Below are positions 3,023 through 46,589 of a DNA stretch of 47,226 nucleotides, in pieces. Each line of letters starts with the position of its first letter. Position 1 is the first letter of the stretch. The position numbers were made by a program, and so were the translations under genes. The stretch is from an uncultured bacterium. GTDB taxonomy: Bacteria > Hydrothermota > UBA3073. The stretch covers positions 1 through 47,226 of the forward strand of contig CAYRBN010000001.1 of assembly GCA_964422625.1 (NCBI GenBank), written 5' to 3'. The notes under the pieces are model-generated. The model was not told the DNA's origin, did not search any database, and was given only the letters and a program-made list of their open reading frames with translations.

Positions 3023-3066
3023 TCAGAAATTGCGAAGTGCAAATTTACAACCTTAACCGCATTGGA

Positions 3067-3126
3067 GGTCTGCGGACAGGGACAAGCCCTGTCCCTACAA
3101 TGTCCGCAGGGTTATTTTTGCACAGC
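3067..3126 (+). repeat. GGACA-family compound hairpin (short variant of the element at 25868-25948)
   Basis: Outer stem CTGCGGACA/TGTCCGCAG encloses GGGACA-agccc-TGTCCC. Flanks ggt... and ...gggttatttttgcacagc are shared with the 25868 copy. Confidence 0.7.
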
Positions 3127-3179: not shown

Positions 3180-3345
3180 GACACCTGACCAAAGACGGTT
3201 ATCAGTTATCGGTTATCGGTAAAGACCAACATCAAAGACAGTTATTAGTTATTGGTTATTAGGGCAATGGGGTACTTCATCCTTTTTCCTTTATCCCCCT
3301 ACCACCTGCCACCTAACAAACTAACTAACCAACTAACTACCTGCC
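3180..3345 (-). repeat. concatenated tandem-heptamer arrays downstream of acs
   Basis: Read on the minus strand: gttagtt-type, ggataaa-type, aataacc-type (ctaataaccaataactaataac), ccgataa-type and caggtgt-type units, each in 2-4 degenerate copies. Confidence 0.85.
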
Positions 3346-8959: not shown

Positions 8960-9052
8960 GTTAAAGTCCGAAGTCCAATGTTAACCCTGTGAAGCATCTT
9001 GCTCCACACTGATGCAAGGTGCCTCACCTATTTCTATGAAAATATTAAAAAT

Positions 9053-11658: not shown

Positions 11659-11769
11659 GCCCGCCTCCTTTACAGGTGTTATATGTCGGGGTAACTCACA
11701 ATTCCCACTTATTATAACAGATATAAGATATTTTGTCAAGAAAAAAAAAATAAATCCTGTTAATCCTGT

Positions 11770-13752
11770 CTAAAAATCCTGGATATGCTCCCCTATGTTT
11801 GAGGCATGGAAATTTATCCGCTCAAGGTCTGAAATAAGGTCAAGATGCACGGTGCTGGTCTCTATCGATTCCGGAATCCTCTTCCTCAAGCGATCAAGAT
11901 GTCTATCATGGTATTTTGATAAAAGTTTCCTTCCCTCTCTGCCTCTTTTGACAACCTCCATAGCTAAAGCAGTGTCAGATGTAGCAAGTGCATTTATTGC
12001 CATTCCAAGCGTCTCTTTTGAAAACTCTGTAAATTCCTCTAACTCCATGAACCCCTTTTCTGAAAACAGAAACCCCTTTTTTATCTTCTTTTCCGCGTAG
12101 ATCATAAGACTCTTGGAGACAATATCCCCTATATGTTCAAACTGGTCCACTATATGGAGTAATTTTGCACTTCTCTTTGAAAGTTCCAGCGATACCTCCT
12201 CTTGTGACATCTTGATGAGATAGAGGGTTATATTCTCCTCCATGGCATCAACCCTATCATCATCCTTAACAAGCCTTGCCCTCTCGGTCTCCTCGTCTGT
12301 TCTGATCACTTCTATAGAGCGGGAAAGCATTGAGTGAACAATATCTGCCATTCTCAATATCTCCCTCAGTGCCTGTGCAATTGCGATTGTTGGTGATGAG
12401 AGTAGTGTATAATCAAGATAACGGGGTTGAAACTCGGTCTTTTTCTTGGGGATAAGTCGCTTTATCAATCTTGCATAAGGCATGAGCAGTGGTAAGAACA
12501 ATAAAGCAGAGAAGAGATTGAAGAGCGTATGTGCATTTGCAACCTGTCTTGGAGCAGAGCCAGGTATGTATCCCACAAGGGTGGCAAACTGGGGTATAAA
12601 TGGGAGGAAGATAGCCGCCATAATAACCCTGAATAGTATATGTGCAATGGCTACTCGCTTTGCCTCCACGCTTCTGCCGAGAGAGGCAAGTAAGGCTGTT
12701 ATTGATGTTCCTATATTTGCACCCAATATGATTGCTATAGCAGTTTGAAGATTTATCAACCCCTCAAATGAGAGTGCAAGGACAATTGCCATCGTAGCTC
12801 CTGATGCCTGGATTACGGCACTGAATAGGCTTGAGAGAACAAGCAGGGAAATATGATATTCTCCGATGCTCATAAGCTTATCAGTAACTCCGGGGAGGAA
12901 TGTGAGTGGATGAATTGCATCTGTCATAAGCTTCATGCCAAAGAATATGAGCCCAAATGAGAATATAACCCTGCCTGCATAGTGAATCCTTTTACCCTTT
13001 CCAAGTATCATCATAAAAAAACCGCCCGCAATAATGAGAAGTGCTATATCAAACACCTTAAATGCAATCAGTTGCACAGTCAATGTGGTTCCTATCCCTG
13101 CTCCAAGAATAACGCCAAGTGTCTGGACAAAATTTACAAGCCCTGCCTCGGCAAATGAGACAAGCATAACCGTTGTCGCTGAACTTGACTGCGTAAGTAT
13201 CGTGATGAATATACCAACAGCCACCCCAACAACAGGATTCTTTGTCATCCTCCACAGAAGCTCCCTTAACTTACCACCTGCTATTCTTGTGAGTGCCTTG
13301 CCACCAAAGTTGAGCCCATACATAAACAGAGCAAAGCCCCCTAACAGGCCAATTATTAGAAAGAAGAGAAAACCAGACCTCATCGCAATGTAGGAAAGCC
13401 TGACACCCTCCTCTGATAGAGGAGAGGTTGCAGAAAGCCAGTATTCACCCTCCATGTCTCCAGCCCCAAGAGAGAATATTGCATAGCCTCTTGAGTCTGT
13501 TGTTGCAGTGAAGATGGTGTTCAGGTATCCCTTATCTACCCCAGGCGGAGCAGATATAATTCTCAGGCTTACAGGAACTTCCTTCTGGGGAACACCCTCG
13601 TTATCTGTCACCTCAATAATCATAGGAGAGGGAAGTTTCGCACCCACGGTTGCCACCATCCCATCTCCTGATATATCATCTCCTCTTGCATCCCTTGCCC
13701 TTGTAAGGTAGAAAGGGTGAAGAAGAAGTATTATACATAGAAGACCGCTCAT
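11770..13752 (-). CDS. Na/Pi cotransporter family protein with C-terminal PhoU-like domains and an N-terminal Ig-like extension
   Basis: Multi-TM NaPi core (QSSSATT...) plus a PhoU-like helical tail. Start moved to ATG 13752 (MSGLLC...) because the track's TTG start lies on top of a consensus promoter. Confidence 0.85.
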   Translation of the reverse strand: MSGLLCIILLLHPFYLTRARDARGDDISGDGMVATVGAKLPSPMIIEVTDNEGVPQKEVPVSLRIISAPPGVDKGYLNTIFTATTDSRGYAIFSLGAGDMEGEYWLSATSPLSEEGVRLSYIAMRSGFLFFLIIGLLGGFALFMYGLNFGGKALTRIAGGKLRELLWRMTKNPVVGVAVGIFITILTQSSSATTVMLVSFAEAGLVNFVQTLGVILGAGIGTTLTVQLIAFKVFDIALLIIAGGFFMMILGKGKRIHYAGRVIFSFGLIFFGMKLMTDAIHPLTFLPGVTDKLMSIGEYHISLLVLSSLFSAVIQASGATMAIVLALSFEGLINLQTAIAIILGANIGTSITALLASLGRSVEAKRVAIAHILFRVIMAAIFLPFIPQFATLVGYIPGSAPRQVANAHTLFNLFSALLFLPLLMPYARLIKRLIPKKKTEFQPRYLDYTLLSSPTIAIAQALREILRMADIVHSMLSRSIEVIRTDEETERARLVKDDDRVDAMEENITLYLIKMSQEEVSLELSKRSAKLLHIVDQFEHIGDIVSKSLMIYAEKKIKKGFLFSEKGFMELEEFTEFSKETLGMAINALATSDTALAMEVVKRGREGRKLLSKYHDRHLDRLRKRIPESIETSTVHLDLISDLERINFHASNIGEHIQDF

Positions 13753-13791: not shown

Positions 13792-13848
13792 GGGATTTTT
13801 AATTAGATTAGTCAACAGGTGGAGTGGCTTGCTCCATCTGTTATTGCT

Positions 13849-13985
13849 AATATTAGCACACAGATTTACACAGATAAAACTGATTTACACAAATATAATT
13901 CATTATAAAGATTTTTTTAAATCTGTGCCTATCTATTCAATCTGTGTAAATCTGTGTGCTTCTCCTCTTTTTTCCTTGACTTTTT
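13849..13985 (+). repeat. palindromic MITE-like element, copy 1, carrying an outward TTGACT box
   Basis: Perfect 21-nt terminal inverted repeats AGCACACAGATTTACACAGAT (13855-13875 / 13940-13960). About 137 bp near-identical to 24753-24891, including ...cttgacttttt. Confidence 0.85.
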
Positions 13986-14004
13986 ATAAAGAATGTGTTA
14001 AAAT
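13976..14004 (+). promoter_or_regulatory. promoter TTGACT-17-TAAAAT facing the DegT gene
   Basis: -35 at 13976-13981 (inside the repeat element) and -10 at 13999-14004. The CDS starts about 480 nt downstream, with a MITE in between. Confidence 0.55.
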
Positions 14005-14104
14005 AAGTTGTAACTTGAGGGGTAGAGAAAGAGAAGATGCTTCCGATGAATACCGGGACAGAGGCTGTAGAGACCGCAAGAAAATGGGGATACCTTATAA
14101 AAGG

Positions 14105-14386
14105 GGTTCTTCGCGCTTTTAGTTGGTTCAAATGCCGACCAAATGCTATAGGGATTTGAGAATATGGCTTATTGTATTTAAGAGGTAATACCTTTTTCGT
14201 TTTATAAGTAGGAGCTTTCTAAAAAACGGCTTTCAAAAATGTAGGCACGATTTCAAATCGTGCTAGCACAAATTGAATTTGTGCCTACAAATGCTCTAGG
14301 TGAACAGTCTTATATACAAATATGCAAAGAGCGCAAATTCAAGGAGGTTTGTCCATATATTCTACCAACTAAAAGAGCGAAGAACC
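14105..14386. mobile_element. non-autonomous MITE: 23-bp TIRs and 8-bp target-site duplication
   Basis: GGTTCTTCGCGCTTTTAGTTGGT (14105-14127) matches the reverse complement of 14364-14386 at 22/23. ATAAAAGG occurs directly on both sides (14097-14104 and 14387-14394). No ORF inside. Confidence 0.85.
14240..14289 (+). repeat. 50-nt double-hairpin element (copy inside the MITE)
   Basis: TGTAGG-[GCACGATTtcaaATCGTGC]-ta-[GCACAAATTgAATTTGTGC]-CTACA. A reverse-complement copy lies at 36067-36116. Confidence 0.85.
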
Positions 14387-16858: not shown

Positions 16859-16929
16859 GAAAAAAATTCGCTAACTATACGAATAGAAATCAATAGAAAT
16901 TTAGTGAGATTAGTGGACGCACTTTTTTC

Positions 16930-16957
16930 TTGACTTTCTCTATTTCTGTGTTATAAT
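16930..16957 (+). promoter_or_regulatory. promoter TTGACT-16-TATAAT for sppA (divergent from the speD promoter)
   Basis: -35 at 16930-16935 and -10 at 16952-16957. The upstream block agtgagattagtggacgcacttttttc resembles the one at 34870-34903. Confidence 0.65.
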
Positions 16958-17123: not shown

Positions 17124-19325
17124 ATGTACATCGTACTACTAAGCCTGGTCACATTCCTGTTTGATGGGGGTGTGGCAACAGTAGGGAGGTCTTATGCCCC
17201 GTTCGTAAATCCAGCAGGCATTGCAATATCGCCGGGGTTGGAGACCTCATATCTATTAGGTATAAATGGAGGGGAGGCGACCCATACCATTGGTCTATCT
17301 ATGGGAGGTATCGGGTTCGGAACAGAGATTAGAGGCGCAGAACGGAATTTTATCTTATCAAGTGGGCTTCGGATAAAAGACTGGATATATTTTGGTTCAG
17401 GATATAGATTTGGCGACATTGGGGGATATAACATTGGGACTATCATAAGACCGCACAGGTTTCTCTCCATTGGAGTGGTGGGAGATAAGATTGATGATAG
17501 ATATCTGGTCTCATCAGGGATTGGGGTGAGACCAGGGACAGACAGGATAACCCTCACCATTGATGGTGTCCTTGAACAGGATAAGGTGCCTGATTATAGA
17601 TTTGGGGCGAGGCTTGAACCAGTTGATGGAATATTTATAGAGGGCTATTGGGATGAAGACATCTGGAGGGCAGGTATCTCCCTATCTCTTGGCAATATTG
17701 GATTTGGTGGTAACATTGACGGAGCAGACAATTATAACGCGGGTATGGTGTTTTCAAGAGAGAGACACCCTACATTCAAAAAACCTGCCACAAGGTTTGC
17801 CGAGCTCATACTAAAGGGCTCTTATCCAGAACTTGAGAGGAGTGGTATCTTCTTTGAGAAGGTAACTGCACCTTTCTATAAACTACTTTCAAGGATAGAA
17901 GAGCTATCAAAAGAGGATGCCTGTAATGGCATACTTCTAGAACTGAAAGGTGCCCGGATGCGTATGAGCCAGTGGGAGGAGCTAAGAGACGCACTCGTTG
18001 ATTTCAAGGCAGAGGGCAAAAAGGTATATATCTATGGAACCCATTATGGATTTGGCTCTCTCTATCTCGCATCTGTGGCAGATTCAGTATTCCTTCATCC
18101 AGCAGGAATGGTCTTTATTCCGGGGATCCAGGCAAGGATGATATACATAAAAGGGACGATGGAGAAACTTGGAATAGAGGCACAGATAGAGAGGATTGGG
18201 AGGTTCAAATCCGCATCAGAACCATTTGAGAGAGAAGATATGTCAGAAGAGGATAGTCTCCAGCTTATGGAGTATCTCAGGGACATATACTATCCAACAA
18301 TAGAGACAATTGCAGAGGCAAGGGATATCTCACCAGACAGTCTAAAGAGACTGATAAACGAGGGGATCTTCTTTACAGGAGAGTCTGCACGAGAAGCAGG
18401 ACTCATAGATGCAGTCTGGGAGAAGAATAGAGTTGATTCCCTTGTTTTTGGAGAAAAGAGAGATAGATTCAGGAAAGAGAGGGAAGTGAAGAGAGGATGG
18501 AGAGAAGATAAAGAGAAGGAGAAGATAGCACTGATAATTGCAGAAGGGGGTATCATAGAGGGCAGATCATCAGACGGGTGGATAGGCTCAGATGATATGG
18601 TGAAGACACTTGAAAAGGTGAGGGATGATAAGAGCATAAAGGCGGTTGTGTTCAGAGTGAACTCTGGAGGAGGTTCTGCCATTGCATCAGAGATGATTGG
18701 CAAGGCGCTCAAGGATGTAGCAGGAGAGAAACCTGTTGTTGTCTCTATGGGGAGTGTTGCTGCTTCTGGTGGATATTATATATCTGCTTATGGAGACAAG
18801 ATATACGCAAATAACTCTACACTCACAGGTTCAATCGGGGTGATATGGGCTGGCTTTCTTTTCAAGGGGCTTTATGACAAGATTGGGATCTCCTGGGACA
18901 TAGTAAAATTGGGTAGGCATGCTGATATACTCTCTGACATCCGTGAGTGGGATGACTATGAACGGGAAAAGATAAGGGGAGCTACGGAGTGGTTCTATGA
19001 TAGATTCACATCTACGGTTGCGGATGGAAGAGATACGACAGCTGAATACATACACTCGATTGGAGAGGGAAGGATATGGAGCGGAGTGGATGCAAAGGAG
19101 ATTGGACTGGTTGATGAGATAGGCGGGATGTTTGCCGCACTGAAATCTGCTCAAGAGATGGCAGATATTGAAGAGAGAGATGTTGTGATATACCCAAAAC
19201 CAGAAAGGGGGTTCCGCTTTGACCCTACATTTGGGATCAGTAGTTCTCTATCATCTATCAAATCTCTTCTCTCATCAGAATATCTCTACATTATGCCATA
19301 TAAGATAGATGTGGAGGTGAGGTGA
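17124..19325 (+). CDS. sppA: signal peptide peptidase SppA (67K type, two S49 domains) with about 230-aa beta-rich N-terminal extension
   Basis: VVFRVNSGGGSAIASE and SMGSVAASGGYYIS motifs. RBS context is GGAGGTTGTATG. Confidence 0.85.
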   Translation: MYIVLLSLVTFLFDGGVATVGRSYAPFVNPAGIAISPGLETSYLLGINGGEATHTIGLSMGGIGFGTEIRGAERNFILSSGLRIKDWIYFGSGYRFGDIGGYNIGTIIRPHRFLSIGVVGDKIDDRYLVSSGIGVRPGTDRITLTIDGVLEQDKVPDYRFGARLEPVDGIFIEGYWDEDIWRAGISLSLGNIGFGGNIDGADNYNAGMVFSRERHPTFKKPATRFAELILKGSYPELERSGIFFEKVTAPFYKLLSRIEELSKEDACNGILLELKGARMRMSQWEELRDALVDFKAEGKKVYIYGTHYGFGSLYLASVADSVFLHPAGMVFIPGIQARMIYIKGTMEKLGIEAQIERIGRFKSASEPFEREDMSEEDSLQLMEYLRDIYYPTIETIAEARDISPDSLKRLINEGIFFTGESAREAGLIDAVWEKNRVDSLVFGEKRDRFRKEREVKRGWREDKEKEKIALIIAEGGIIEGRSSDGWIGSDDMVKTLEKVRDDKSIKAVVFRVNSGGGSAIASEMIGKALKDVAGEKPVVVSMGSVAASGGYYISAYGDKIYANNSTLTGSIGVIWAGFLFKGLYDKIGISWDIVKLGRHADILSDIREWDDYEREKIRGATEWFYDRFTSTVADGRDTTAEYIHSIGEGRIWSGVDAKEIGLVDEIGGMFAALKSAQEMADIEERDVVIYPKPERGFRFDPTFGISSSLSSIKSLLSSEYLYIMPYKIDVEVR

Positions 19326-19500
19326 AGGGAAAAGGAAAAAGGATAAAGGATAAAGGATAAAGGATGAAGGAGTGAGGCGTAGGGCGTAGGGCGTAAGGAG
19401 TAGGGCGTAATTGATAATCAGTTCCCTGACACCTAACACCTGACACCTGATTTGACCTAATAACCAATAACTAATAACAAATAACCAAGCTTACTGCTTA
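19326..19500 (+). repeat. concatenated tandem-heptamer arrays downstream of sppA
   Basis: Successive blocks: ggataaa x4, gcgtagg x4, acacctg x3-4, aataacc x4 (ctaataaccaataactaataac, identical to the acs-side copy) and cttactg x2. Confidence 0.9.
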
Positions 19501-22100: not shown

Positions 22101-22129
22101 TTGACATTTTGGGATTTATGCAGTATAAT
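22101..22129 (+). promoter_or_regulatory. consensus promoter TTGACA-17-TATAAT, 9 nt before the nfo ATG (near-leaderless)
   Basis: -35 at 22101-22106 and -10 at 22124-22129. No SD before ATG 22139. Confidence 0.7.
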
Positions 22130-22138
22130 AGATATGAG

Positions 22139-22981
22139 ATGCGATTTGGATTTCATATATCCATAGCAGGTGGATTTGGGAGGGTTACAGATAGGGCAGA
22201 GAAGAAGGGATGTGAGACCCTCCAACTATTCTCCCGTAACCCGAGAGGGTGGCATTGTCCCCCACTTAACGATATAGATGTGGCAAAGTTCAGAGAGGAT
22301 ATAAAGCAAGCAGGGATATCTCCTGTATTCGTTCATCTTCCCTACTTGCCAAACCTTGCCTCGCCCAAAGACGACCTCTTGAGCACTTCAATATCCTCCC
22401 TTGAGGAGGAACTTCATCGGGCAGAGATACTTGGTGCAGATTTTGTGATAGCACATATGGGTAAAAGAATTGACTCTCCTCTCCAGGATGCAATAGAGAG
22501 AATGGCTTTTTCAATAAACACTGCTCTTGGTAATGTGAAGAATGATACAATTCTTCTTCTTGAAAATACAGCAGGACAGGGCTCTGAGATAGGAGATAAG
22601 TTCTCGGTGATAGGATATGTTATAGATAGGATTGTTGAAAAAAGTAGGTTAGGTGTCTGCCTTGATACAGCACATGCGTTTGAGGCTGGATACGATATAT
22701 CAAAAAAAGATGGGATTGATCATATCCTGAAAGAGATCCAGAATATAATAGGATTGGAAAGACTCTACCTGCTACATCTGAACGATTCAAAAACTCCACT
22801 CGGTTCCCACATAGACCGTCACTGGCATATAGGAGAGGGGTATATAGGGCTTTCTGGTTTTGAGACTATAATAAACCATCCACTCCTATGCCATCTACCC
22901 AGTATTATGGAGACCCCAAGAAAGGCTGATGAGGATGATACAGGGAATATGGAGGTGATAAGGAGACTGGTAAAGAAATGA
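22139..22981 (+). CDS. nfo: endonuclease IV (AP endonuclease)
   Basis: MRFGFHISIAGG..., HLNDSK and DRHWHIGEG motifs. The track start 22109 overlaps the promoter, so ATG 22139 is used. Confidence 0.9.
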   Translation: MRFGFHISIAGGFGRVTDRAEKKGCETLQLFSRNPRGWHCPPLNDIDVAKFREDIKQAGISPVFVHLPYLPNLASPKDDLLSTSISSLEEELHRAEILGADFVIAHMGKRIDSPLQDAIERMAFSINTALGNVKNDTILLLENTAGQGSEIGDKFSVIGYVIDRIVEKSRLGVCLDTAHAFEAGYDISKKDGIDHILKEIQNIIGLERLYLLHLNDSKTPLGSHIDRHWHIGEGYIGLSGFETIINHPLLCHLPSIMETPRKADEDDTGNMEVIRRLVKK

Positions 22982-23134
22982 CAAAAAACTTTAATCACGA
23001 AGGCACAAAGACACGAAATGCAGGTGATCAGTTATCGGTGGTCGGTAATCTGAAATCTTGGTGCCTCTGCCTTATGTAATAACAATCTGTGATTCATATT
23101 ACACAGGGTGAATGTCCTGGCGGTGAATAAAAAC

Positions 23135-23176
23135 ATTTGCAATTTGCATTTTACAATTTGCAATTTGCATTTTACA
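23135..23176 (+). repeat. exact 2 x 21-bp tandem repeat (atttgcaatttgcattttaca)
   Basis: Units at 23135-23155 and 23156-23176 are identical. Confidence 0.9.
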
Positions 23177-23178
23177 AT
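23150..23178 (+). promoter_or_regulatory. candidate promoter TTTACA-17-TACAAT generated by the 21-bp duplication
   Basis: -35 (23150-23155) comes from unit 1 and -10 (23173-23178) from unit 2. It sits about 25 nt before ATG 23203, which has a GGGGG RBS. Confidence 0.45.
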
Positions 23179-23202
23179 GGAGCGAAGCGACCTGGGGGTT
23201 AT

Positions 23203-24606
23203 ATGGAATATATCTCTCCACAACCAAAAGAGAAGAGCCGAAAGTTGATTGAGAGGGATAGAAGGTTGATGTTTTCTGCACATACACGTTCAGATGAGCT
23301 TCCTCTTGCAGTAGATTATGCAAAGGGGGTCAGGATATGGGACATTGATGGAGATAGCTATCTTGACTTTACTGCGGGATATGCTGTCTGTGCAACAGGA
23401 CACTGCAATGAGGAGATTATCAGGGCTGTGGAAGAACAGACCCGTAGGCTGATTCATATCGGGGGTAGCGACTTCTACTATGAACCCCAGGTTACTCTTG
23501 CAGAAAAACTGATAGAGATTACTCCTGGTTCTTATGATAAGAGGATCTATTTTGGAAACTCTGGGGCAGAGTCCCTGGAAGCAGCTCTAAAGATAGCAAG
23601 ATATTTCACAAGACGACCACAAGTTATCTCATTCTTCGATGGGTTTCACGGAAGAACATATGTTGGAATGTCACTTTCAGGAAGTAAAAAAGTTCAAAAA
23701 GCACACTTCTCTCCCCTTATCCCAGAGGTTACCCATACATTCTATCCATACTGTTATAGATGTCCACTCAATCTTACATATCCAGGATGTATTAAGGAAG
23801 AATTTGAGGGGGTTCCACTTATCTCTTGTGTGGACTTTCTTCTGAATACAATATTTAAACAGATCTGTGACCCTGAAGATGTTGGGGCAATATTTGTTGA
23901 ACCTATCCAGGGAGCGGGAGGATATATAGTTCCACCAGAGGAGTTTCTTTTACTCCTCTCTATGATAGCAAAAAAATGGGGTATTATTCTTGTTATGGAC
24001 GAGATACAATCAGGGCTTGGAAGGACAGGAAAGTGGTTTGCCTCTGACCATTTTGGGGTTGAGCCTGATATAGTATGTATAGCAAAGGCATTGGGAGCAG
24101 GGTTGCCAATATCTGCAACGGTTGGACGGGCAGATCTTATGGATGCGGCTGTGGATAAGAGGGCATGGGTTAAAGGTTCTCACGGTTCCACATTTGGAGG
24201 CAATCCGGTTGCTTGTGCAGCAGGCATAAAGACACTTGAACTGCTTGAGGGAGGAGTGATGGAGAATGCAGGCTCTGTGGGCAGTTTCATAATGGAGAGA
24301 TTAAAAGAGATAAAAGAGAAACATAGGATTATAGGGGAAGTGAGGGGCAAGGGACTTATGATAGGGATAGAACTGGTGAAGGATAAGAAGACAAAGGAGA
24401 GGTTCCCAGAAAATCTTACAGGTGATGGAAAGGGGATAAAAGAGGTTGTGATTGGTTCCTGTTTCAAGAAGGGCTTATTCGTTCTTGGATGTGGCAGAGA
24501 TACAATAAGGTTCTCACCACCGCTCGTATTAAGAGAAGAAGAGGCAGAGGAAGGACTTTCAATATTTGAGAGCGCGATTGAAGAGATAGAGGGATTAGTT
24601 GGTTAG
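23203..24606 (+). CDS. class-III (ArgD/GabT-like) PLP aminotransferase
   Basis: GNSGAESLEAALK, DEIQSGLGRTGKWFA and STFGGNP motifs. Start set at MEYISPQ. Confidence 0.85.
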   Translation: MEYISPQPKEKSRKLIERDRRLMFSAHTRSDELPLAVDYAKGVRIWDIDGDSYLDFTAGYAVCATGHCNEEIIRAVEEQTRRLIHIGGSDFYYEPQVTLAEKLIEITPGSYDKRIYFGNSGAESLEAALKIARYFTRRPQVISFFDGFHGRTYVGMSLSGSKKVQKAHFSPLIPEVTHTFYPYCYRCPLNLTYPGCIKEEFEGVPLISCVDFLLNTIFKQICDPEDVGAIFVEPIQGAGGYIVPPEEFLLLLSMIAKKWGIILVMDEIQSGLGRTGKWFASDHFGVEPDIVCIAKALGAGLPISATVGRADLMDAAVDKRAWVKGSHGSTFGGNPVACAAGIKTLELLEGGVMENAGSVGSFIMERLKEIKEKHRIIGEVRGKGLMIGIELVKDKKTKERFPENLTGDGKGIKEVVIGSCFKKGLFVLGCGRDTIRFSPPLVLREEEAEEGLSIFESAIEEIEGLVG

Positions 24607-24690
24607 GTAGTTAGTTTGTTAGTTGGTTAGTCAGTTACAAGTTACAAGTTACGAGTAACAAGTCAAACAAGAAACTCGTTACTTGTTACT
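24595..24690 (+). repeat. tandem-heptamer arrays (gttagtt-type, then gttacaa-type) starting inside the last codons of the aminotransferase
   Basis: ttagttggttaggtagttagtttgttagttggttag is followed by gttacaagttacaagttacgagtaacaagt. Confidence 0.85.
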
Positions 24691-24752
24691 GTTCGTATTG
24701 TGGGAGGCATCTCCTGATGCCGATGGTCAAGGTCAGGAGACCTTTCCCACAT

Positions 24753-24891
24753 AATATTAGCACACAGATTTTCACAGATAAAACTGATTTACACAAATAT
24801 AATTCATTATAAAGATTTTTTTTGAAATCTGTGCCTATCTATTCAATCTGTGAAATCTGTGTGCTTTTCCTCTTTTTTTTCTTGACTTTTT
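24753..24891 (+). repeat. palindromic MITE-like element, copy 2, carrying the holA -35 box
   Basis: TIRs are AGCACACAGATTTTCACAGAT (24759-24779) and ATCTGTGAAATCTGTGTGCT (24846-24865). The interior is near-identical to copy 1. Confidence 0.85.
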
Positions 24892-24909
24892 GACTTTATT
24901 TATTATAAT
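24882..24909 (+). promoter_or_regulatory. promoter TTGACT-16-TATAAT, 6 nt before the holA ATG (leaderless)
   Basis: -35 at 24882-24887, -10 at 24904-24909 and ATG at 24916. There is no room for an SD. Confidence 0.7.
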
Positions 24910-24915
24910 ATAAGT

Positions 24916-25866
24916 ATGGGGAGTATAGACTACCTGAAGGCAAAAAAAGAGATAGAGAGGGGAGTTATCAAAAATAGTTACCTTCTTGCCGGAGAGAACG
25001 AGTTTCTTAAAGAGGAGATTATAACTCTCCTTGAGGAAACTCTTATAAATAAGAAGACAAGGCTATTTGACAGGACAAAGTTTTATGGGGATGAACTTCC
25101 AGACAATCTCCACAGGCAGATAACTTCTCTACCTATCTCCTCTAAAAGGCACCTGAGTATAATTCGGAGTGTAGATAAGATAAAGAAAGAGAAAGGGAAA
25201 AAGGAGATAAAAAAACTTCTAAAGTTGTCCTCTCCATACCTGTGTATTGTTCTGACAGATGGAAAACAGAAGAAAAAAAGATCTCAGTTTTTGAACTGGC
25301 TCCTTTCTAATACAGAAACTGTTTGGTGCAAGAATTTTTCAGAAGATGCTATCAAGAGATGGGTGTCTGATAAGGTGAAAGACCGAGGAAGAGATATTTC
25401 CAGGGATGCAGTCTCGCTATTGGTTGATTTTGTTGGTGATGATATGTATTCACTCTCATCAGAGATAAGAAAACTTCTCTCATTTAAGTCAGAAGGAAGA
25501 GTTGATAGAGAAGATATTGAAAAGATTGTAGGAATAGATAGATTGTCCTCTGTTTATGAACTTGAATCCGCTATTTGCAGGAAGAATATTAAGAAAGGGA
25601 TGAAGGCACTAAACAACCTTCTCCTCTGGGGCGAAAAGCCAGGGGCTATACTTTACAGACTCGGGAAATGGCTGATGGCATCATCTTCAGGTAGACCATG
25701 GAAGAACGGACTTGAGTTCAGAGATGCTGCAATTGGTCTCTCTACACTGACAGAAATAGAGGTAGAGATAAGAGAGGGACGAATAGACGACAGGTTTGCA
25801 GTTGAGGAATTTGTATATAAACTTTGCAAAACCGAGTGCAAAAAGTCAGTTTACCCTGTTAAATAG
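24916..25866 (+). CDS. holA: DNA polymerase III delta subunit
   Basis: 316 aa. N-terminal NSYLLAGENEFLKEEI and C-terminal LLLWGEKPGAILYRLGKW match the HolA pattern. Confidence 0.75.
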   Translation: MGSIDYLKAKKEIERGVIKNSYLLAGENEFLKEEIITLLEETLINKKTRLFDRTKFYGDELPDNLHRQITSLPISSKRHLSIIRSVDKIKKEKGKKEIKKLLKLSSPYLCIVLTDGKQKKKRSQFLNWLLSNTETVWCKNFSEDAIKRWVSDKVKDRGRDISRDAVSLLVDFVGDDMYSLSSEIRKLLSFKSEGRVDREDIEKIVGIDRLSSVYELESAICRKNIKKGMKALNNLLLWGEKPGAILYRLGKWLMASSSGRPWKNGLEFRDAAIGLSTLTEIEVEIREGRIDDRFAVEEFVYKLCKTECKKSVYPVK

Positions 25867-25867
25867 A

Positions 25868-25948
25868 GGTCTGCGGACAGGGATAAATCCTGTCCCTACA
25901 TTGTAGGGACAACCCTTGTGGTTGTCCGCAGGGTTGTTTTTGCGCAGC
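25868..25948 (+). terminator. GGACA-family multi-hairpin followed by a T-run; candidate intrinsic terminator of holA
   Basis: Outer stem CTGCGGACA/TGTCCGCAG encloses GGACAGG-gataaat-CCTGTCC and GGACAACC-cttgt-GGTTGTCC. It is followed by ggttgttttt. Confidence 0.5.
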
Positions 25949-26001
25949 TTCTTACGCTGGTTCAATAAAAAGGAAAAAGGATAAAGGATAATGAGGAGCT
26001 T

Positions 26002-28098
26002 ATGATTTTTCTTTATTTAGTCATTTTAGCCATCCCTGTATGGTCTACTGATACCTGGGATGGAGGAGGGGGACAGTTCATCTGGAATGATACAAGTATG
26101 TATCTATATTCAGAGGGGTTATGTGGAGGAAGATTCCATGGCAAGATTGTACTCTATACCCCTTACCTTTCAGAACCACATTTTGTCAATCTTGAGGGAC
26201 TGAAGGAACTACATGTCATTATCCAATTACCTGATGGGAGGATACTTATAGCAGGGGAAAAGAATAATAGCGGAGTTATATATCTGAGTGAGGATGGAGG
26301 ATATACATGGAGTGAAGCAGTGCTACCCCCAGATATTCTCTCTGTCAGATCTCTAACTTATTATGATGGAAAATTTATTGCAGGAGTTACAGATATTCAT
26401 AATCGGGGATATATACTCCTTTCAGATAATGGGATAAGCTGGACACTAGAGAGTGGACATATGGAACATTCTATTTTGTCTCTCCTTGTAAGGGCGGATG
26501 GATACGGGTTTGCAGGAACAGGAAATCGCGGATGGCTGTACTGGACAAATTTTGCAAAGGATTGGAGTGGGCTAACAGTGATAGGATTATTAGGTATCAG
26601 AACCATAAACCATCTTTACCAGACATCCTCTGGCAGGATATATGCGGCAACAAGATCTACAACCAATGAGGGAAGGGTGTTCTATTCTGATATTGGTGGA
26701 ACAGGTGGATGGGAACTTATCCCTTCTATATTTGGACAGTCTGCATACTCTATAGCAGAGGATGATAAAGGGAATCTATATGTGGGAACAGGAGATTTTG
26801 ATGGAAGGGTATTTGTGATACGGGAAGATATTGTGAGTGGGACCCCTGCGACCGGAACCCAGAGGGTCAATTCTGTCCTCTCTGATTTTGATGGAGATAT
26901 ATACATTGGAGCAACCTCTTTTGAGGGTGGAGTCAATGTTGGAAGAATCCTCGTCTTCTCTAATGGTGACTGGGTCCACTCGGTCAAGGTGGACACATTG
27001 AGAGCAATAAGGGTTATTTTCATCACCCAGGATGGGAAGTTGGTCTTTGGTGGTGAAGGTAGCTATATCGGGGTTTACGGACATAGGAGAGAGGGTTTTC
27101 TGGTCTCTTCAATCTATGATGTTGGCACTGATAATGGGAGTGTCCGATACCGCTATATTGATTGGGATGGTACCCTAAACGGTGGAGCGATCACGGTAAG
27201 GGTAAGGACAGGAACATCCACTGATACATCCCAATATCTCCCCTGGGAATACTGCCCCCCACTGGAGAAAGGACAGTTCCTTGAGGGTGTAAATGGTATC
27301 AATCCTGGGGATAGATATATCCAGTACAGAGTGGACATCTCATCGCCCTCATCTGCCCTGACACCGCTATTTCATAATATTAGGGTATTTTACACGATAG
27401 ATACTGTTGGTCCTATAATTACGAGTACGGAAGTATTTATGGAACCAGAATCATATCCATATATAGATTCTTTAGACCTTGTATTCAGTGAACCGACAAA
27501 CCGTCCTGATATATATATAGGAAACATTGACAGGGTTCTATCTCTCTCAAATAATCACTCATGGCTTTCAAGTGATGGGTTTATAGGAGGGATTGGCTGG
27601 GTCTCTGATGAGAGACTCCGAATAAGGCTTCTCTTCTTTGGTGACACGCCTGCAACAGTGCGTATTGGGGATATGATATATCCCGACTCATCCACAATAA
27701 GGGATGAATATGAAAATCCAAGTGTTAGGCCTGTTGCTATTAAACAGATCGGTATAGAAGAGAGAGAAAAATTAAGAATTACGAATTATGAATTAAGAAT
27801 TTATCCAAATCCGTTCAGAGGCTTCGTGCGTATAGCGTATAGCGTAATGCGTAATGCGTCAGAGAAACACTCTACGCCTAACGCTCTACGCCCTACGCCT
27901 TACGCTTTACGCATCTACGACCTCTCAGCCCGCCTCATCCGCACCATACCGATTACCGAACACCGATTACCGATTACCGAAGTAACCTGGGATGGCAGGG
28001 ATAAACAGGGAAACGAGGTAAAGTCAGGGGTATATTTTATAAGATTGGAGGGGACCTCTTTCCAGGAGATAACAGAAAAGGTTATACTGATCCGATAA
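26002..28098 (+). CDS. secreted BNR/beta-propeller protein with T9SS C-terminal sorting domain
   Basis: Signal peptide, BNR motifs (SEDGGYTWS, SDNGISWT) and a C-terminus IYPNPF...LRIYDL...VTWDGRDKQGNEVKSGVYFIRL. Confidence 0.8.
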   Translation: MIFLYLVILAIPVWSTDTWDGGGGQFIWNDTSMYLYSEGLCGGRFHGKIVLYTPYLSEPHFVNLEGLKELHVIIQLPDGRILIAGEKNNSGVIYLSEDGGYTWSEAVLPPDILSVRSLTYYDGKFIAGVTDIHNRGYILLSDNGISWTLESGHMEHSILSLLVRADGYGFAGTGNRGWLYWTNFAKDWSGLTVIGLLGIRTINHLYQTSSGRIYAATRSTTNEGRVFYSDIGGTGGWELIPSIFGQSAYSIAEDDKGNLYVGTGDFDGRVFVIREDIVSGTPATGTQRVNSVLSDFDGDIYIGATSFEGGVNVGRILVFSNGDWVHSVKVDTLRAIRVIFITQDGKLVFGGEGSYIGVYGHRREGFLVSSIYDVGTDNGSVRYRYIDWDGTLNGGAITVRVRTGTSTDTSQYLPWEYCPPLEKGQFLEGVNGINPGDRYIQYRVDISSPSSALTPLFHNIRVFYTIDTVGPIITSTEVFMEPESYPYIDSLDLVFSEPTNRPDIYIGNIDRVLSLSNNHSWLSSDGFIGGIGWVSDERLRIRLLFFGDTPATVRIGDMIYPDSSTIRDEYENPSVRPVAIKQIGIEEREKLRITNYELRIYPNPFRGFVRIAYSVMRNASEKHSTPNALRPTPYALRIYDLSARLIRTIPITEHRLPITEVTWDGRDKQGNEVKSGVYFIRLEGTSFQEITEKVILIR
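27769..27980 (+). repeat. four heptamer arrays embedded in-frame inside the T9SS CTD coding region
   Basis: aattaag x4 (27769-27802), gcgtata/gcgtaat x4 (27828-27859), the inverse word ctacgcc x5-6 (27872-27912) and ccgatta x4 (27949-27980). Confidence 0.85.
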
Positions 28099-28121
28099 CA
28101 GGTGGAGCATCTTGCTCCACA
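28097..28121 (+). repeat. 25-nt hairpin repeat aacagGTGGAGCAtcttGCTCCACa
   Basis: Identical 25-mer at 36122-36146. Degenerate copies at 13815-13841 and 8989-9007. It begins inside the stop codon of the upstream gene and has no T-run. Confidence 0.8.
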
Positions 28122-28149
28122 GAAAGGAAAGTTGATAAGAGGAGCCATT

Positions 28150-29571
28150 ATGAAATTTAGACAGATTGATAATATCAGATGGGAACTGGAGAAATCTGGC
28201 GGTATGAGGGTGGCAGGTCTTATATATGCGGACAGGGAGCCTCTCGGGCATATTGAGGAAGAGAATGTGGCAGAACAGGTTGCAAAGGTTGCACACCTTC
28301 CAGGTATTGTTGGCTATTCACTTGGAATGCCTGATATCCACTGGGGATACGGATTTCCCATAGGAGGGGTCGCTGGAACGAGAATGAGTGATGGCGTCAT
28401 CTCCCCTGGAGGTGTTGGTTATGATATAAACTGTGGAGTGAGATTGCTGAGAACAGGGCTTACAGAGGATGATGTCAGACCAAGACTTGGACAGCTTCTT
28501 GATATGATATATAACAATATCCCCTGTGGAGTCGGTTCAAAAGGCAAACTGAGATTGACACAGGGAGAACTTGAATCTGTCCTGATGCTGGGCGCAAGAT
28601 GGATGGTGGAGAACGGTTTTGGAAAGAAGGATGACTTGCTTGTATTAGAGGAGGAAGGATGCCTGAAATATGCAGACACCGCGAAAGTGAGCAAGAGGGC
28701 ACTTGAGAGGGGAAGACCACAGCTTGGCACACTCGGTGCTGGCAACCATTTTCTTGAAGTTCAGGTAGTTGATAAAATCTATAATCCAGCAGTTGCAGAT
28801 CTGTTCGGGCTCATTGAAGGTGAGATAACTTGTATGATTCACACAGGTTCAAGGGGATTTGGGCATCAGGTATGTGATGACTATCTCAGGGTCTGTGAGT
28901 CTGCGGTGAAGAAGTATCATATAAACCTTCCTGATAAGGAACTCTCCTGCGCTCCCATAGATTCAAAAGAGGGAAGGGACTATCTTGCTGCTATGGGCTG
29001 TGCTGCAAACTTTGCATGGGCAAATCGGCAGTGCATAACCCACTGGATAAGAGAGTCATTTATTAGTTTATTTAGAAATGTCCAACTGGATATAATATAT
29101 GATCTTGCCCATAATATAGCAAAAATTGAGAAACATAAAGTGGATGGAAAAACTTATGAGATCTGCGTGCATCGTAAAGGGGCTACAAGGGCGTTTCCAA
29201 AGGGACATAAAGATATCCCAGAGATATATAGAGATGTTGGTCAGCCAGTTCTTATCCCTGGTGATATGGGGACACACTCTTATATACTGGTAGGGACTGA
29301 TATCGCAATGGAAGAAACATTCGGTTCCACCTGTCACGGTGCAGGGAGAAAAATGTCAAGACATAAGGCAGTAAAACTGTCAAAAGGAAGGAAGATTGAC
29401 AAAGAACTTAAAGAGAAGGGAATTCTGGTGCGCGCAAAGTCCTATAGGACACTTATGGAAGAGATGTCTGATGCCTATAAAGATATAAATAGGGTGGTAG
29501 ATGTTGTGGAGCGTGCAGGAATTTCAAGAAAGATTGCCAGGATGAGTCCCATAGGAGTTGTAAAGGGATGA
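28150..29571 (+). CDS. rtcB: RNA-splicing ligase RtcB
   Basis: GYDINCGVR, HTGSRGFGHQV and CHGAGR motifs. Start at MKFRQID, preceded by AGAGGAG. Confidence 0.95.
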   Translation: MKFRQIDNIRWELEKSGGMRVAGLIYADREPLGHIEEENVAEQVAKVAHLPGIVGYSLGMPDIHWGYGFPIGGVAGTRMSDGVISPGGVGYDINCGVRLLRTGLTEDDVRPRLGQLLDMIYNNIPCGVGSKGKLRLTQGELESVLMLGARWMVENGFGKKDDLLVLEEEGCLKYADTAKVSKRALERGRPQLGTLGAGNHFLEVQVVDKIYNPAVADLFGLIEGEITCMIHTGSRGFGHQVCDDYLRVCESAVKKYHINLPDKELSCAPIDSKEGRDYLAAMGCAANFAWANRQCITHWIRESFISLFRNVQLDIIYDLAHNIAKIEKHKVDGKTYEICVHRKGATRAFPKGHKDIPEIYRDVGQPVLIPGDMGTHSYILVGTDIAMEETFGSTCHGAGRKMSRHKAVKLSKGRKIDKELKEKGILVRAKSYRTLMEEMSDAYKDINRVVDVVERAGISRKIARMSPIGVVKG

Positions 29572-34730: not shown

Positions 34731-34903
34731 GTTCCCGGTCAAGAAAAATCTCTCTCGCCCCAGTTAAATAAAAACCAAAGACATTTAACGGGGTAAACAA
34801 AGACGCAAAGTCGCAAAGAAGTCTAAACCAGTACTGTCAGGAGGTAACTCCTGACACCACAGTATTCGTGTAGATTAGTGAAATTCGTGGACGCATTTCT
34901 TTC

Positions 34904-34932
34904 TTGACAAAATCTCTTTTAAGGAGTATAAT
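34904..34932 (+). promoter_or_regulatory. orphan consensus promoter TTGACA-17-TATAAT
   Basis: -35 at 34904-34909 and -10 at 34927-34932, followed by aaaaATGTAA. The next plausible ORF is the decayed PIN gene about 310 nt downstream. Confidence 0.6.
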
Positions 34933-35572: not shown

Positions 35573-35739
35573 TTAGCCACAGAACTTCATTCACCCCGCA
35601 CCTATGCATAGGTGCGGGGCAGGAAAAAACACAGAAATAGATTAAATCTTTGAAAAATCTATTTTCACCCAAAAGGTGAAGGATGGCTTTTTATGTACAT
35701 CTATGATATTTCAGTGAAATTCTGTGTTATTCTGTGGCT
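35573..35739. repeat. inverted-repeat-bounded element with internal 26-nt perfect palindrome
   Basis: AGCCACAGAA (35575-35584) pairs with TTCTGTGGCT (35730-35739). CCCCGCACCTATGCATAGGTGCGGGG lies at 35594-35619. It sits directly after the PIN remnant. Confidence 0.55.
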
Positions 35740-46386: not shown

Positions 46387-46441
46387 TAAACCCTCCTTTT
46401 GTAATGTTAAGTATTGTGAAAAAACTTAACCACAGAGAAAA

Positions 46442-46483
46442 GAATTGAGAATTATAAATTAAGAATTGAGAATTGAAAATTGG
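46442..46483. repeat. gaattga/aaattaa heptamer array flanked by the short inverted repeat CACAGAGAAAA/TTTTCTCTGTG
   Basis: The sequence reads gaattgagaattataaattaagaattgagaattgaaaattgg. The same word family occurs inside the CDS at 27769-27802. Confidence 0.8.
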
Positions 46484-46589
46484 AGTTAGCTATTTTTCTC
46501 TGTGCACTCTTTTAGTGCAAAAATCCTCATTAAGATATACTACGACTTTTATATTAGAGAGCACAGAGAATCCTTTGAGAATCACAGAT

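What the first reader, a model, noticed from the sequence alone, without database searches (positions are those of the whole stretch)
13849..13985. Palindromic MITE-like element that delivers an outward-facing -35 box; its two copies keep their inverted repeats by compensatory change
Copies at 13849-13985 and 24753-24891 are near-identical.

Copy 1 has perfect 21-nt TIRs AGCACACAGATTTACACAGAT / ATCTGTGTAAATCTGTGTGCT. Copy 2 has ...GATTTTCACAGAT / ATCTGTGAAATCTG.... The TTTACA-to-TTTTCA change in the left arm is mirrored by TGTAAA-to-TGAAA in the right arm, so pairing is preserved.

Homology continues past the right TIR through ctcttttttt-cTTGACTtttt and then stops. In both places that TTGACT serves as the -35 of a promoter whose -10 lies in unique DNA (TAAAAT at 13999, TATAAT at 24904). 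In copy 2 this is the leaderless holA promoter.

Shorter relatives with cacaga-type arms occur at 35573-35739 and around 46425-46520.
Basis: partly seen in the sequence, partly recalled or inferred. Interest (0 to 1): 0.62.

Follow-up and report, generated by a model that had tools for sequence, protein, structure and literature searches.

The report
Promoter-linked palindromic repeat of phased heptamers
The two copies belong to a high-copy family of about 140-bp palindromic intergenic repeats that sit directly against canonical promoters in an uncultured hydrothermal-vent bacterium, but the claimed compensatory change between the arms is not real and transposition is not shown.

Summary
13848-13985 and 24752-24891 are about 97% identical in unrelated flanks. 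Copy 1 has perfect 21-nt inverted arms. Both copies are followed by TTGACT-16/17-TA(A/T)AAT.

Metagenome contig depth rises from about 54x in the flanks to about 5,100x over the arms, which suggests tens of copies per genome. Every sampled right flank that keeps TTGAC also has a 5/6 or better -10 box at 16-17 nt (chance about 2% per site).

The "compensatory change" is not supported:
- Copy 2 has a bulge, not a restored pair.
- The double change folds no better than either single change.
- In 15 related elements that pair is unpaired in 11 of 12 sequences.
- The heptamers are conserved as sequence, while the spacers drift without compensation.

The shared T-run plus TTGAC is also this genome's generic promoter module (TTTTTTC-TTGAC). 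The element probably joins resident promoters at that module rather than supplying a -35 box to naive DNA.

No target-site duplication, transposase or empty site was found. RNA data were too sparse to map starts.

Arms built of CACAGAT heptamers spaced 9-10 nt recur in at least 9 phyla. Some of these elements enclose GxxExxY or four-helix-bundle genes.

The parts
13848..13854 (+). Copy 1, left tail TAATATT, the start of the repeated unit
   Evidence: Contig depth rises from 54x to 5,105x between 13846 and 13856. The tail is shared with copy 2.
13855..13898 (+). Copy 1, left arm: AGCA-CACAGAT-TTA-CACAGAT-AAAACTGAT-TTA-CACAAAT. The outer 21 nt form the perfect inverted repeat.
   Evidence: (I6).
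13899..13916 (+). Copy 1, A+T-rich centre (loop)
13917..13960 (+). Copy 1, right arm, with ATCTGTG heptamers at 13921, 13940 and 13950
   Evidence: (I6).
13961..13975 (+). Copy 1, linker TCTCCTC plus T-run and CC. Bases 13961-13973 are part of the repeated unit in this subfamily; depth falls from 13974.
   Evidence: Depth is about 1,040-1,110x through 13973, the same as the outer right arm.
13976..14004 (+). Copy 1, promoter-like site TTGACT-17-(TG)TAAAAT. Homology with copy 2 ends at 13985.
   Evidence: Depth falls stepwise: 411-477x at 13974-13979, 266x at 13980-13981, 164x at 13982-13985, 30x from 13986.
24752..24758 (+). Copy 2, left tail TAATATT
24759..24865 (+). Copy 2, palindrome. Left outer arm is 24759-24779 (TTTT variant). 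Right outer arm is 24846-24865 (1-nt deletion, 9-nt heptamer spacing).
24866..24881 (+). Copy 2, linker TTTCCTC plus T-run and C
24882..24909 (+). Copy 2, promoter-like site TTGACT-16-TATAAT. The holA ATG follows at 24916.
   Evidence: The promoter is conserved in the 88%-identical orthologue L114.
16900..16957 (+). Unrelated phased array (TTTAGTG / ATTAGTG, ending GTGGACGCA) that abuts TTTTTTC-TTGACT-16-TATAAT
34864..34932 (+). Unrelated phased array (ATTCGTG / ATTAGTG / ATTCGTG, ending GTGGACGCA) that abuts TTTCTTTC-TTGACA-17-TATAAT
35575..35739 (.). Palindrome of the same build with CACAGAA-type arms and an internal 13-bp perfect hairpin. No promoter follows it.
46431..46570 (.). Short CACAGAG-type inverted repeats, weak relatives in build only

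Best explanation
Each copy is one member of a high-copy family, probably tens per genome, of about 140-bp non-coding palindromic repeats in an uncultured hydrothermal-vent bacterium of the WOR-3 / Stahlbacteria lineage.

Shown:
- The arms are arrays of three CACAGAT-like heptamers spaced one helical turn apart, in inverted orientation around an A+T-rich centre.
- The heptamers are conserved as sequence. Base-pair compensation does not maintain the arms.
- The repeated unit has an asymmetric right tail (TCTCCTC plus a T-run). This tail runs straight into the lineage's canonical promoter module, TTTTTTC-TTGAC(A/T)-17-TATAAT.

Inferred:
- The heptamers are read by a protein on double-stranded DNA, either a mobilising enzyme or a host DNA-binding protein. 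They are not constrained as an RNA or DNA hairpin.
- The family spreads by a route that joins its right end to resident promoters inside the shared T-run / -35 module, for example recombination or insertion at that microhomology.
- On this reading the -10 box and the start site are the resident gene's own, and promoter geometry is always kept.
- The result is a 106-bp hairpin-capable, phased protein-binding array at about -40 to -150 of at least ten promoters, including holA. There it could insulate the promoter from upstream read-through (hairpin plus U-rich tail) or modulate it.

The copy-2 arm changes are ordinary drift at the variable spacer between heptamers.
For: A dispersed repeat:
- The two copies are 97% identical in unrelated flanks.
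- Depth is about 5,100x against 54x.
- Several distinct left and right flanks were recovered.

Sequence is conserved, not pairing:
- In alignment A2 the heptamer pairs never vary.
- Spacer pairs 12-117 and 14-115 are unpaired in 9 of 13 and 11 of 12 sequences.
- Two-sided changes are 1 and 0 in the two outer helices.
- Fold energies show no compensation.

Promoter link:
- All 9 loose-end groups that keep TTGAC, plus both window copies, have a 5/6 or better -10 box at 16-17 nt. Chance is 2.2% per site.

The module is generic:
- 8 of 11 promoter-like sites in the window carry a T-rich run ending in C directly before TTGA(C/T).
- The same module follows heptamer arrays in other genera, L024 and L030.

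Junction inside the module:
- Homology ends stepwise between 13973 and 13985.
- No flanking direct repeats.

Orthologous evidence:
- L114 (88% identical holA) has the identical stretch TTTTTTTCTTGACTTTTTGAC and the same TATAATATA, with a diverged spacer between them, behind a differently ending array.
- More distant relatives have holA directly after the upstream gene, with no palindrome.
- 4 of 5 intergenic GTG-type arrays in the window abut a promoter, against a control rate of 0.5%.
Against: - No transcription data. The one metatranscriptome from the same sample gave no contigs over either copy or its promoter.
- Other genomic copies were seen only as consensus contig ends of up to 30 nt pooled over 1-4 contigs, not as individual sequences.
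- Depth could include related elements from other community members.
- At least five copies share TTGACTTTTT rather than the commoner TTGACAAAA. This fits the rival in which the -35 box travels with the element.
- Four contig-end groups have a degenerate -35 box and no -10 box, as expected for random insertions that carried a -35 box.
- No mobilising enzyme and no binding protein were identified.
Confidence: 0.45

Rival explanations
1. A transposing MITE carries the T-run and the TTGACT -35 box in its right end. It creates hybrid promoters wherever a -10 box happens to lie 16-18 nt beyond the insertion point. Copies that form useful promoters are kept.
For: - The linker plus T-run is at the same depth as the outer right arm.
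- At least five copies share the less common TTGACTTTTT.
- Four contig-end groups show a decayed -35 box and no -10 box, as expected of unselected insertions.
- Promoter-bearing MITEs such as Correia, MITEAba12 and BrickBuilt are established (PMC10969869).
Against: - A 5/6 or better -10 box is expected at only about 2% of random sites, yet 11 of 11 flanks with an intact TTGAC have one. That would need extreme survivorship.
- No target-site duplication.
- The homology end-points vary.
- T-run-C-TTGAC is the generic promoter module, even at promoters with no element.
- Most related elements in sister genera lack it (1 of 30 and 1 of 14).
Confidence: 0.25
2. The palindrome is a host cis-regulatory module. 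It would be an operator or activator array bound by a transcription factor or nucleoid protein that recognises phased CACAGAT heptamers, and it would define a regulon of the downstream promoters. The dispersed copies would then be co-opted or duplicated regulatory DNA.
For: - The heptamers are conserved as sequence with 9-10-nt phasing.
- Fixed position just upstream of the -35 box at several promoters, also for unrelated heptamer families.
- Strictly intergenic location across phyla, 81 of 82 elements.
Against: - The non-motif loop and spacers are about 97% identical between copies. This indicates recent copying rather than independently maintained operators.
- Downstream genes are functionally unrelated: holA, and a DegT aminotransferase about 480 nt away.
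- Most related elements in other genomes are not next to promoters.
- No candidate binding protein was found.
Confidence: 0.15
3. It acts mainly at the RNA level. It would be a long hairpin plus U-rich tail that works as a repeat-borne intrinsic terminator, an insulator, or an RNase III / stability element, like pneumococcal SPRITE or transcribed Correia elements.
For: - Very stable hairpin, -40 kcal/mol, z-score -8.5, followed by UCUCCUCUUUUUU.
- Copy 2 lies after a co-directional aminotransferase gene.
- In relatives (RS_17_16), T-runs follow the hairpin on both sides.
Against: - Copy 1 has no co-directional upstream gene; it sits between divergent genes.
- The terminator scan did not call it, and a 7-nt linker separates the stem from the T-run.
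- No covariation supports a conserved RNA structure.
- No Rfam match.
- No RNA contigs cover it.
- Only 32 of 106 outward ends across phyla have a run of four or more T's.
Confidence: 0.15

Closest known systems
Correia elements (CREE / nemis) of Neisseria
   Same: Short (about 100-200 bp) high-copy intergenic palindromic repeats that lie mostly just upstream of genes. They carry sigma-70-like promoter sequences and can form long hairpins in RNA (PMC10969869; PMC3575422).
   Different: - Correia elements have defined terminal inverted repeats with a TA target duplication and an IHF site (the TA duplication is from my own knowledge).
- Here the arms are arrays of phased heptamers.
- No target duplication is seen.
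- The promoter lies outside the palindrome, in a tail that equals the host's generic promoter module.
Putative mobile promoters (Matus-Garcia, Nijveen and van Passel 2012)
   Same: Near-identical upstream regions, including the -35 area, in front of non-homologous genes within one genome. The mobilisation route is unknown (PMC3575422).
   Different: That is a purely operational class defined by BLAST identity. It says nothing about palindromic heptamer arrays or about junctions inside the -35 module.
Pneumococcal SPRITE / BOX / RUP repeats and REP / REPIN elements
   Same: Small structured intergenic repeats that cluster and insert next to one another. SPRITE looks like a rho-independent terminator (PMC10969869). 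This window also holds separate REP-like GTAG hairpins.
   Different: The CACAGAT element lacks the GTAG head and single short hairpin of REPs. No RAYT-type transposase was seen. Its arms are direct-repeat arrays.
IS-derived hybrid promoters (outward -35 box in an IS end)
   Different: No IS or transposase is involved here. The near-universal presence of a correctly spaced -10 box does not fit untargeted insertion.
Small gene cassettes encoding GxxExxY (TIGR04256) or four-helix-bundle '23S rRNA intervening sequence' proteins (TIGR02436)
   Same: In other phyla the same kind of inverted phased-heptamer arrays flank these genes. In L015 the arms are shared with cargo-less palindromes in the same locus.
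   Different: No such gene lies in the 56 kb available for this organism. I found no paper describing these flanks. The link to the window's element rests on build and heptamer motif only.

Membership tests
Prokaryotic MITE | Short, non-coding, with terminal inverted repeats | tested here: met
   About 140 bp. No ORF of 30 aa or more lies wholly inside it. No Pfam or NCBIfam hit for the spanning ORF. Perfect 21-nt arms in copy 1.
Prokaryotic MITE | Many dispersed copies in unrelated flanks | tested here: met
   Two copies in the window. Depth is about 95 times that of the flanks. Distinct left and right flanks appear in contig ends.
Prokaryotic MITE | Target-site duplication flanking the inverted repeats | tested here: not met
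   No direct repeat flanks either copy. Left flanks are ..TTATTGC / ..TTCCCACA and right flanks are unique DNA beyond TTGACTTTTT.
Prokaryotic MITE | Cognate autonomous element or transposase with the same ends | tested here: inconclusive
   None in the window plus 9 kb. No recurrent transposase among ORFs of 104 loci. The only recurrent cargo between such arms is GxxExxY or four-helix-bundle genes in other phyla.
Prokaryotic MITE | Presence/absence polymorphism (empty sites) | tested here: inconclusive
   Four samples show no clean excision joint. L121 (98% identical) has the element. L114 (88% identical holA) has a related but differently ending array at the same place. Distant relatives lack the whole region.
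Promoter-bearing MITE (Correia-like) | Functional sigma-70-type promoter contributed by the element | tested here: inconclusive
   Consensus matches of 10/12 and 11/12, and a -10 box in 11 of 11 intact copies. The T-run / -35 module is generic. No transcription start data.
Structured RNA or hairpin maintained by covariation | Compensatory base-pair changes between the arms across homologues | tested here: not met
   the outer helices have 1 and 0 pairs with two-sided change, and the disputed pair is unpaired in 11 of 12 sequences; no energetic compensation; no Rfam family.
Intrinsic terminator (SPRITE-like repeat) | G+C-rich stem followed immediately by a U-run, downstream of a co-directional gene | tested here: inconclusive
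   Strong hairpin, but a 7-nt linker precedes the T-run and the terminator scan does not call it. The position fits copy 2 only.
REP / REPIN (RAYT-mobilised) | GTAG-headed short palindromes paired as doublets, with a RAYT gene | tested here: not met
   The arms contain no GTAG head. Separate GTAG hairpins exist elsewhere in the window. No RAYT gene was seen.

The most novel reading that the evidence does not exclude
The element would be the cargo-less form of an undescribed, cross-phylum class of selfish cassettes.

- Their ends are inverted arrays of phased (9-10 nt) CACAGAT-type heptamers.
- Their gene-bearing forms carry a GxxExxY (PD-(D/E)XK-like nuclease) gene or a four-helix-bundle ('23S rRNA intervening sequence') gene.
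- That small protein, or a conserved host factor, would read the heptamer arrays and drive spread without a classical transposase and without a target duplication.
- In this WOR-3 / Stahlbacteria-lineage bacterium one subfamily has become coupled to the canonical T-run / -35 promoter module. It now marks or rewires a set of promoters.
Probability: 0.25. Interest if true: 0.8.

Novelty: new variant of a known kind. Interest (0 to 1): 0.5.

Why it matters
Small repeats that carry or capture promoters are a known route to rapid rewiring of bacterial gene expression. Here the coupling is unusually strict: every sampled copy with an intact -35 box has a correctly spaced -10 box. The arms are unusual too, being phased heptamer arrays conserved as sequence. 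The junction appears to lie inside the host's own promoter module.

If the junction model is right, it shows how a repeat family can spread among promoters without breaking them. If the cross-phylum link to GxxExxY and four-helix-bundle cassettes is right, it gives a testable role to two very common protein families of unknown function, and points to a new kind of mobile element.

It is also a caution for readers of raw sequence: two changes at the same pair of a hairpin are not compensation unless pairing is restored and the family shows covariation.

Tried and rejected
- **Metagenome scan for more copies.** The family-specific left-arm pattern gave 0 hits. A JGI contig of this organism contains it (L107), so the scanned collection does not hold that sample.
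- **Genome scan.** The organism's own MAG (GCA_021129395.1) was not among the 104 loci.
- **RNA evidence.** One metatranscriptome of the same sample holds the organism but gave no contigs over either element, promoter or leader. Transcription starts and the leaderless claim stay untested.
- **Empty site.** The closest Na/Pi-transporter relative (L121) is the same lineage with the element present. The next relatives are 67-69% identical, too distant to compare.
- **Protein coding.** The 97-aa ORF across copy 1 has no family hit and looks spurious.
- **DnaA boxes.** TTATCCACA occurs at the outer end only in three betaproteobacterial loci. Other phyla have GGAACCACA, TTAGCCACA and similar. Rejected.
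- **Pho box.** Considered because of the direct repeats at one-turn spacing and because copy 1 is next to a Na/Pi-PhoU gene. Rejected because there are tens of copies in front of unrelated genes.
- **MraZ-type or ribbon-helix-helix array binding.** This is recalled from memory only and was not tested.
- **Phage origin.** Only 1 hit in 2.9 million viral contigs, apparently by chance.
- **Recurrent neighbouring transposase.** None was found.
- **Gene-orientation bias across phyla.** 35 tandem, 8 divergent, 10 convergent, so neither terminator-like nor promoter-like.

Full report
**1. The observation**

The two stretches are as described. They align at about 97% from TAATATT (13848 / 24752) to TTGACTTTTT (13985 / 24891), and the DNA on both sides is unrelated (families D9, I6 and I8).

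Copy 1 has perfect 21-nt inverted arms at 13855-13875 and 13940-13960. Complementarity continues at 80% over 44 nt. Each arm is an array of three CACAGAT-like heptamers about 10 nt apart. CACAGAT occurs 25 times in the window against 7.2 expected, and ten of these lie in the two copies.

As single strands the copies fold at -40.1 and -36.5 kcal/mol, with z-scores of -8.5 and -6.1.

The consensus scan finds TTGACT-17-TAAAAT at 13976-14004 and TTGACT-16-TATAAT at 24882-24909. Copy 2's downstream gene is a weak but syntenic holA. Its ATG at 24916 lies 6 nt after the -10 box with no Shine-Dalgarno sequence, so a leaderless transcript is plausible.

**2. Organism and copy number**

The exact holA protein is on record in ENA scaffolds of about 56 kb, in NCBI MAG GCA_021129395.1 and in a JGI metagenome. 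The runs that hold the locus are hydrothermal-vent metagenomes. The closest named homologue, at 57% identity, is from Candidatus Stahlbacteria, and Na/Pi-transporter relatives are labelled WOR-3.

I laid the contigs of four samples on both loci.
- Single-copy flanks sit at about 54x in run X1, and the arms at about 4,400-5,700x.
- The two arms share words, so this means roughly 45-55 elements, if all of them belong to this organism.
- Short-read contigs of the organism end inside the element (L106, L108), as expected for a high-copy repeat.
- The left edge is sharp at 13848-13852, with several unrelated left flanks.
- On the right, the linker TCTCCTC plus the T-run has the same depth as the outer arm, about 1,040-1,110x. 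Depth then falls in steps: 411-477x at 13974-13979, 266x at 13980-13981, 164x at 13982-13985 and 30x from 13986.

**3. The compensatory-change claim fails**

Copy 2 differs by A->T in the spacer between the two outer left heptamers and by loss of the partner T in the right arm. The result is a bulged U, not a restored pair.

I rebuilt all four arm combinations on both backgrounds.

| Arms | Fold energy, copy-1 / copy-2 background (kcal/mol) |
|---|---|
| Perfect | -39.6 / -40.9 |
| Left change only | -34.9 / -36.2 |
| Right change only | -34.7 / -36.0 |
| Both changes | -34.7 / -36.0 |

The second change buys nothing.

A genome scan found homologous elements, 78-80% identical over about 105 nt, in WOR-3 MAGs RS_17_16 and RS_16_8 and in a few unclassified MAGs. 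In a 15-sequence alignment (A2):
- The disputed pair (columns 14-115) is A-U only in window copy 1 and unpaired in 11 of 12 sequences.
- The neighbouring spacer pair 12-117 is unpaired in 9 of 13.
- The heptamer positions never vary.
- The two outer helices have 1 and 0 pairs with changes on both sides.

T in the left spacer is the common family state, and the right-arm deletion recurs in L044. The arms are therefore kept as sequence motifs with free spacers. This points to recognition of the heptamers, most simply by a protein on duplex DNA, rather than selection for a hairpin.

**4. The promoter association is real but is probably not simple delivery of a -35 box**

Contig ends that leave the element on the right give up to 30 nt of other copies' flanks.
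- Every group that retains TTGAC reads TTGAC(A/T)-17-TA(T/A)A(A/C)(T/C). One example is TTGACATTCCAGCCAATATGAAGTATAAT, from a single contig.
- With the two window copies, that makes 11 of 11 with a 5/6 or better -10 box at 16-17 nt.
- Such a hexamer at one of three spacings is expected at 2.2% of sites in this window.
- Four groups that diverge at 13973 have a decayed -35 box and no -10 box.

However, a T-rich run ending in C directly before TTGA(C/T) is the generic promoter module of this genome. It appears at 8 of 11 promoter-like sites in the window, including sites with no element (11739, 16858, 22101, 37338). The same module follows heptamer arrays in other genera (L024: GTGG-TTGCGG-TTTTTTC-TTGACTTTTT; L030), though only at 1 of 30 and 1 of 14 arrays.

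Within the window, 4 of 5 intergenic GTG-type arrays are followed within 20 nt by a full promoter. Two of these belong to unrelated heptamer families, at 16900 and 34864. The control rate is 0.5%.

The holA orthologue at 88% identity (L114) has the identical stretch TTTTTTTCTTGACTTTTTGAC and the same TATAATATA, with a diverged spacer between them. Upstream of that it has an array ending ...ATCTGTGGC-AACGAA, next to a REP-like hairpin, instead of ...ATCTGTGTGCT-TTTCCTC. Stahlbacteria relatives have holA 13 or 100 nt after the upstream AP-endonuclease-family gene, with no aminotransferase gene, no palindrome and no heptamer arrays.

**5. Most likely mechanism**

These points are shown:
- A dispersed, recently copied palindromic repeat.
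- Motif-level rather than pairing-level conservation.
- A strict association of its right tail with complete promoters.
- Variable homology end-points inside the T-run / -35 module.
- No flanking direct repeats.

This is inferred. The family spreads by a route that joins its right end to resident promoters within the shared T-run / TTGAC microhomology. The -10 box and start site would then be the resident gene's own, and promoter geometry is preserved. The element places a phased, protein-readable and hairpin-capable array at about -40 to -150. I give this 0.45.

The rivals are:
It is favoured by the shared TTGACTTTTT and by the decayed copies. It is disfavoured by the 11 of 11 -10 boxes and the lack of a target duplication.
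- A host operator array, 0.15.
- An RNA-level terminator, insulator or RNase III role, 0.15. This is not exclusive of the others.

**6. Wider context found on the way**

The 19-base arm pattern was expected about 9 times by chance in 596 Gb (my estimate from collection size and pattern length). The hits come from WOR-3, Cloacimonadota, Calditrichia, Bacteroidota, Planctomycetota, Verrucomicrobiota, Chloroflexota, Acidobacteriota, Desulfobacterota and Beta/Gammaproteobacteria.
- In 60 loci there are 88 palindromes of one design: arms of 2-3 heptamers (CACAGAT, then CACGGAT, then CGCAGAT), spacing of 10 nt (173 cases) or 9 nt (96 cases), and a median loop of 44 nt.
- 81 of 82 are intergenic, with no orientation bias of the neighbouring genes.
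- No transposase recurs nearby.
- GxxExxY genes (TIGR04256) and four-helix-bundle genes (TIGR02436) lie between or beside such inverted arrays in eight loci.
- In L015 the gene-bearing cassette and two cargo-less palindromes share the same arms.
- Only one match, apparently by chance, exists in 2.9 million viral contigs.
- I found no paper on these arrays or cassettes in the searchable library.

**7. Comparison with known systems**

Promoter-bearing MITEs (Correia, MITEAba12, BrickBuilt, QMITE1), terminator-like SPRITE repeats and 'putative mobile promoters' are established (PMC10969869; PMC3575422). This element works like them in outcome.

As for membership, it meets the MITE criteria of size, inverted arms and dispersed copies. 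It fails the target-duplication criterion. No cognate transposase and no empty site were found. It is not a REP / REPIN, and covariation does not support a structured RNA.

**8. Verdict**

The compensatory-change claim is wrong and the MITE mechanism is unproven. I rate it a new variant of a known kind, interest 0.5. The cross-phylum cassette reading is the part that would matter most if confirmed.

Noticed in passing
window 3189-3342, 19325-19422, 24596-24660, 27823-27913, 29562-29632, 34091-34215, 43725-43772: Most intergenic regions carry tandem 7-nt repeats (GTAGTGA, GTAGGGC, GTTATCA, AAGGATA, TTAGTTGG, GTTACAA). They resemble the short tandemly repeated heptamers of cyanobacteria. Depth over 24586-24647 is about 9,600-12,300x against about 50x in the flanks.
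   Followed up: partly
window 14238-14289 and 36067-36118 (inverted, 96%); also 3065-3103, 25866-25931, 36191-36291: REP-like repeats with a GTAG head and short hairpins (for example GTAGGCACGATTTCAAATCGTGC), at about 3,700x depth. This is a second, unrelated high-copy family. One such hairpin sits inside the array upstream of holA in the sister lineage (L114).
   Followed up: partly
window 8989-9021, 13814-13836, 28097-28119, 36122-36144: A small repeated hairpin, AACAGGTGGAGCATCTTGCTCCAC. One copy lies 11 nt to the left of copy 1 of the element.
   Followed up: no
window 24699-24751: Another palindromic repeat (TGTGGGAGGCATCTCC...GGAGACCTTTCCCACA) directly abuts the left of copy 2. It is present in metatranscriptome contigs at high depth (about 270-550x), unlike the CACAGAT element.
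   Followed up: no
window promoters at 11739(-), 13791(-), 16858(-), 16930(+), 22101(+), 34904(+), 37338(-): This genome has an unusually uniform promoter pattern: T-run, C, TTGACA, AAAA..TTTT..TGG, TATAAT. Several genes (holA, and the Na/Pi transporter with its ATG at 13752) start 6-10 nt after the -10 box, which suggests frequent leaderless mRNAs.
   Followed up: partly
window 11739(-) upstream region 11745-11790; also a contig end: Phased CAGGATT repeats sit directly upstream of the T-run and -35 box of the OsmC-gene promoter. This is a further heptamer family in promoter-proximal position.
   Followed up: no
window 35248-35511: Truncated PIN / VapC-like ORF (87 aa, matching the first half of TIGR00028) about 60 nt before the CACAGAA-type palindrome at 35575-35739. 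This may be a gene interrupted or eroded at a repeat.
   Followed up: no
window 14037-14159: A 40-aa ORF downstream of copy 1's promoter reads ..MNTGTEAVETARKWGY.., which resembles the cofactor-binding region of class-III aminotransferases. Similarity to the intact gene at 23137-24606 is weak (E = 0.07) and there is no Pfam hit. It may be a relic of the gene this promoter once served.
   Followed up: partly
window 22109-30618 compared with L115-L119: Synteny with Stahlbacteria is AP-endonuclease-family gene, holA, RtcB, YchF. This genome has gained a class-III aminotransferase gene before holA and a T9SS-tailed beta-propeller gene after it, each bordered by repeats.
   Followed up: partly
L015 3821-4281; L101 1750-2215; L068 4076-4605; L032 4640-5330; L034 1700-2190; L002 1250-1690: In other phyla, GxxExxY and four-helix-bundle ('23S rRNA intervening sequence protein') genes are enclosed by inverted arrays of short phased repeats. 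The heptamer differs by genome: CACAGAT, CACGAAC, CACGGAC, GGGAAAC.
   Followed up: partly
L003 6066-7980; L027 1151-1965; L014 and L084: In some Bacteroidota (Frigoriflavimonas, Kaistella, Aquiflexum) the heptamer palindromes occur as tandem arrays every 100-400 nt. They are often nested inside outer CTTTGCG-type arrays.
   Followed up: no
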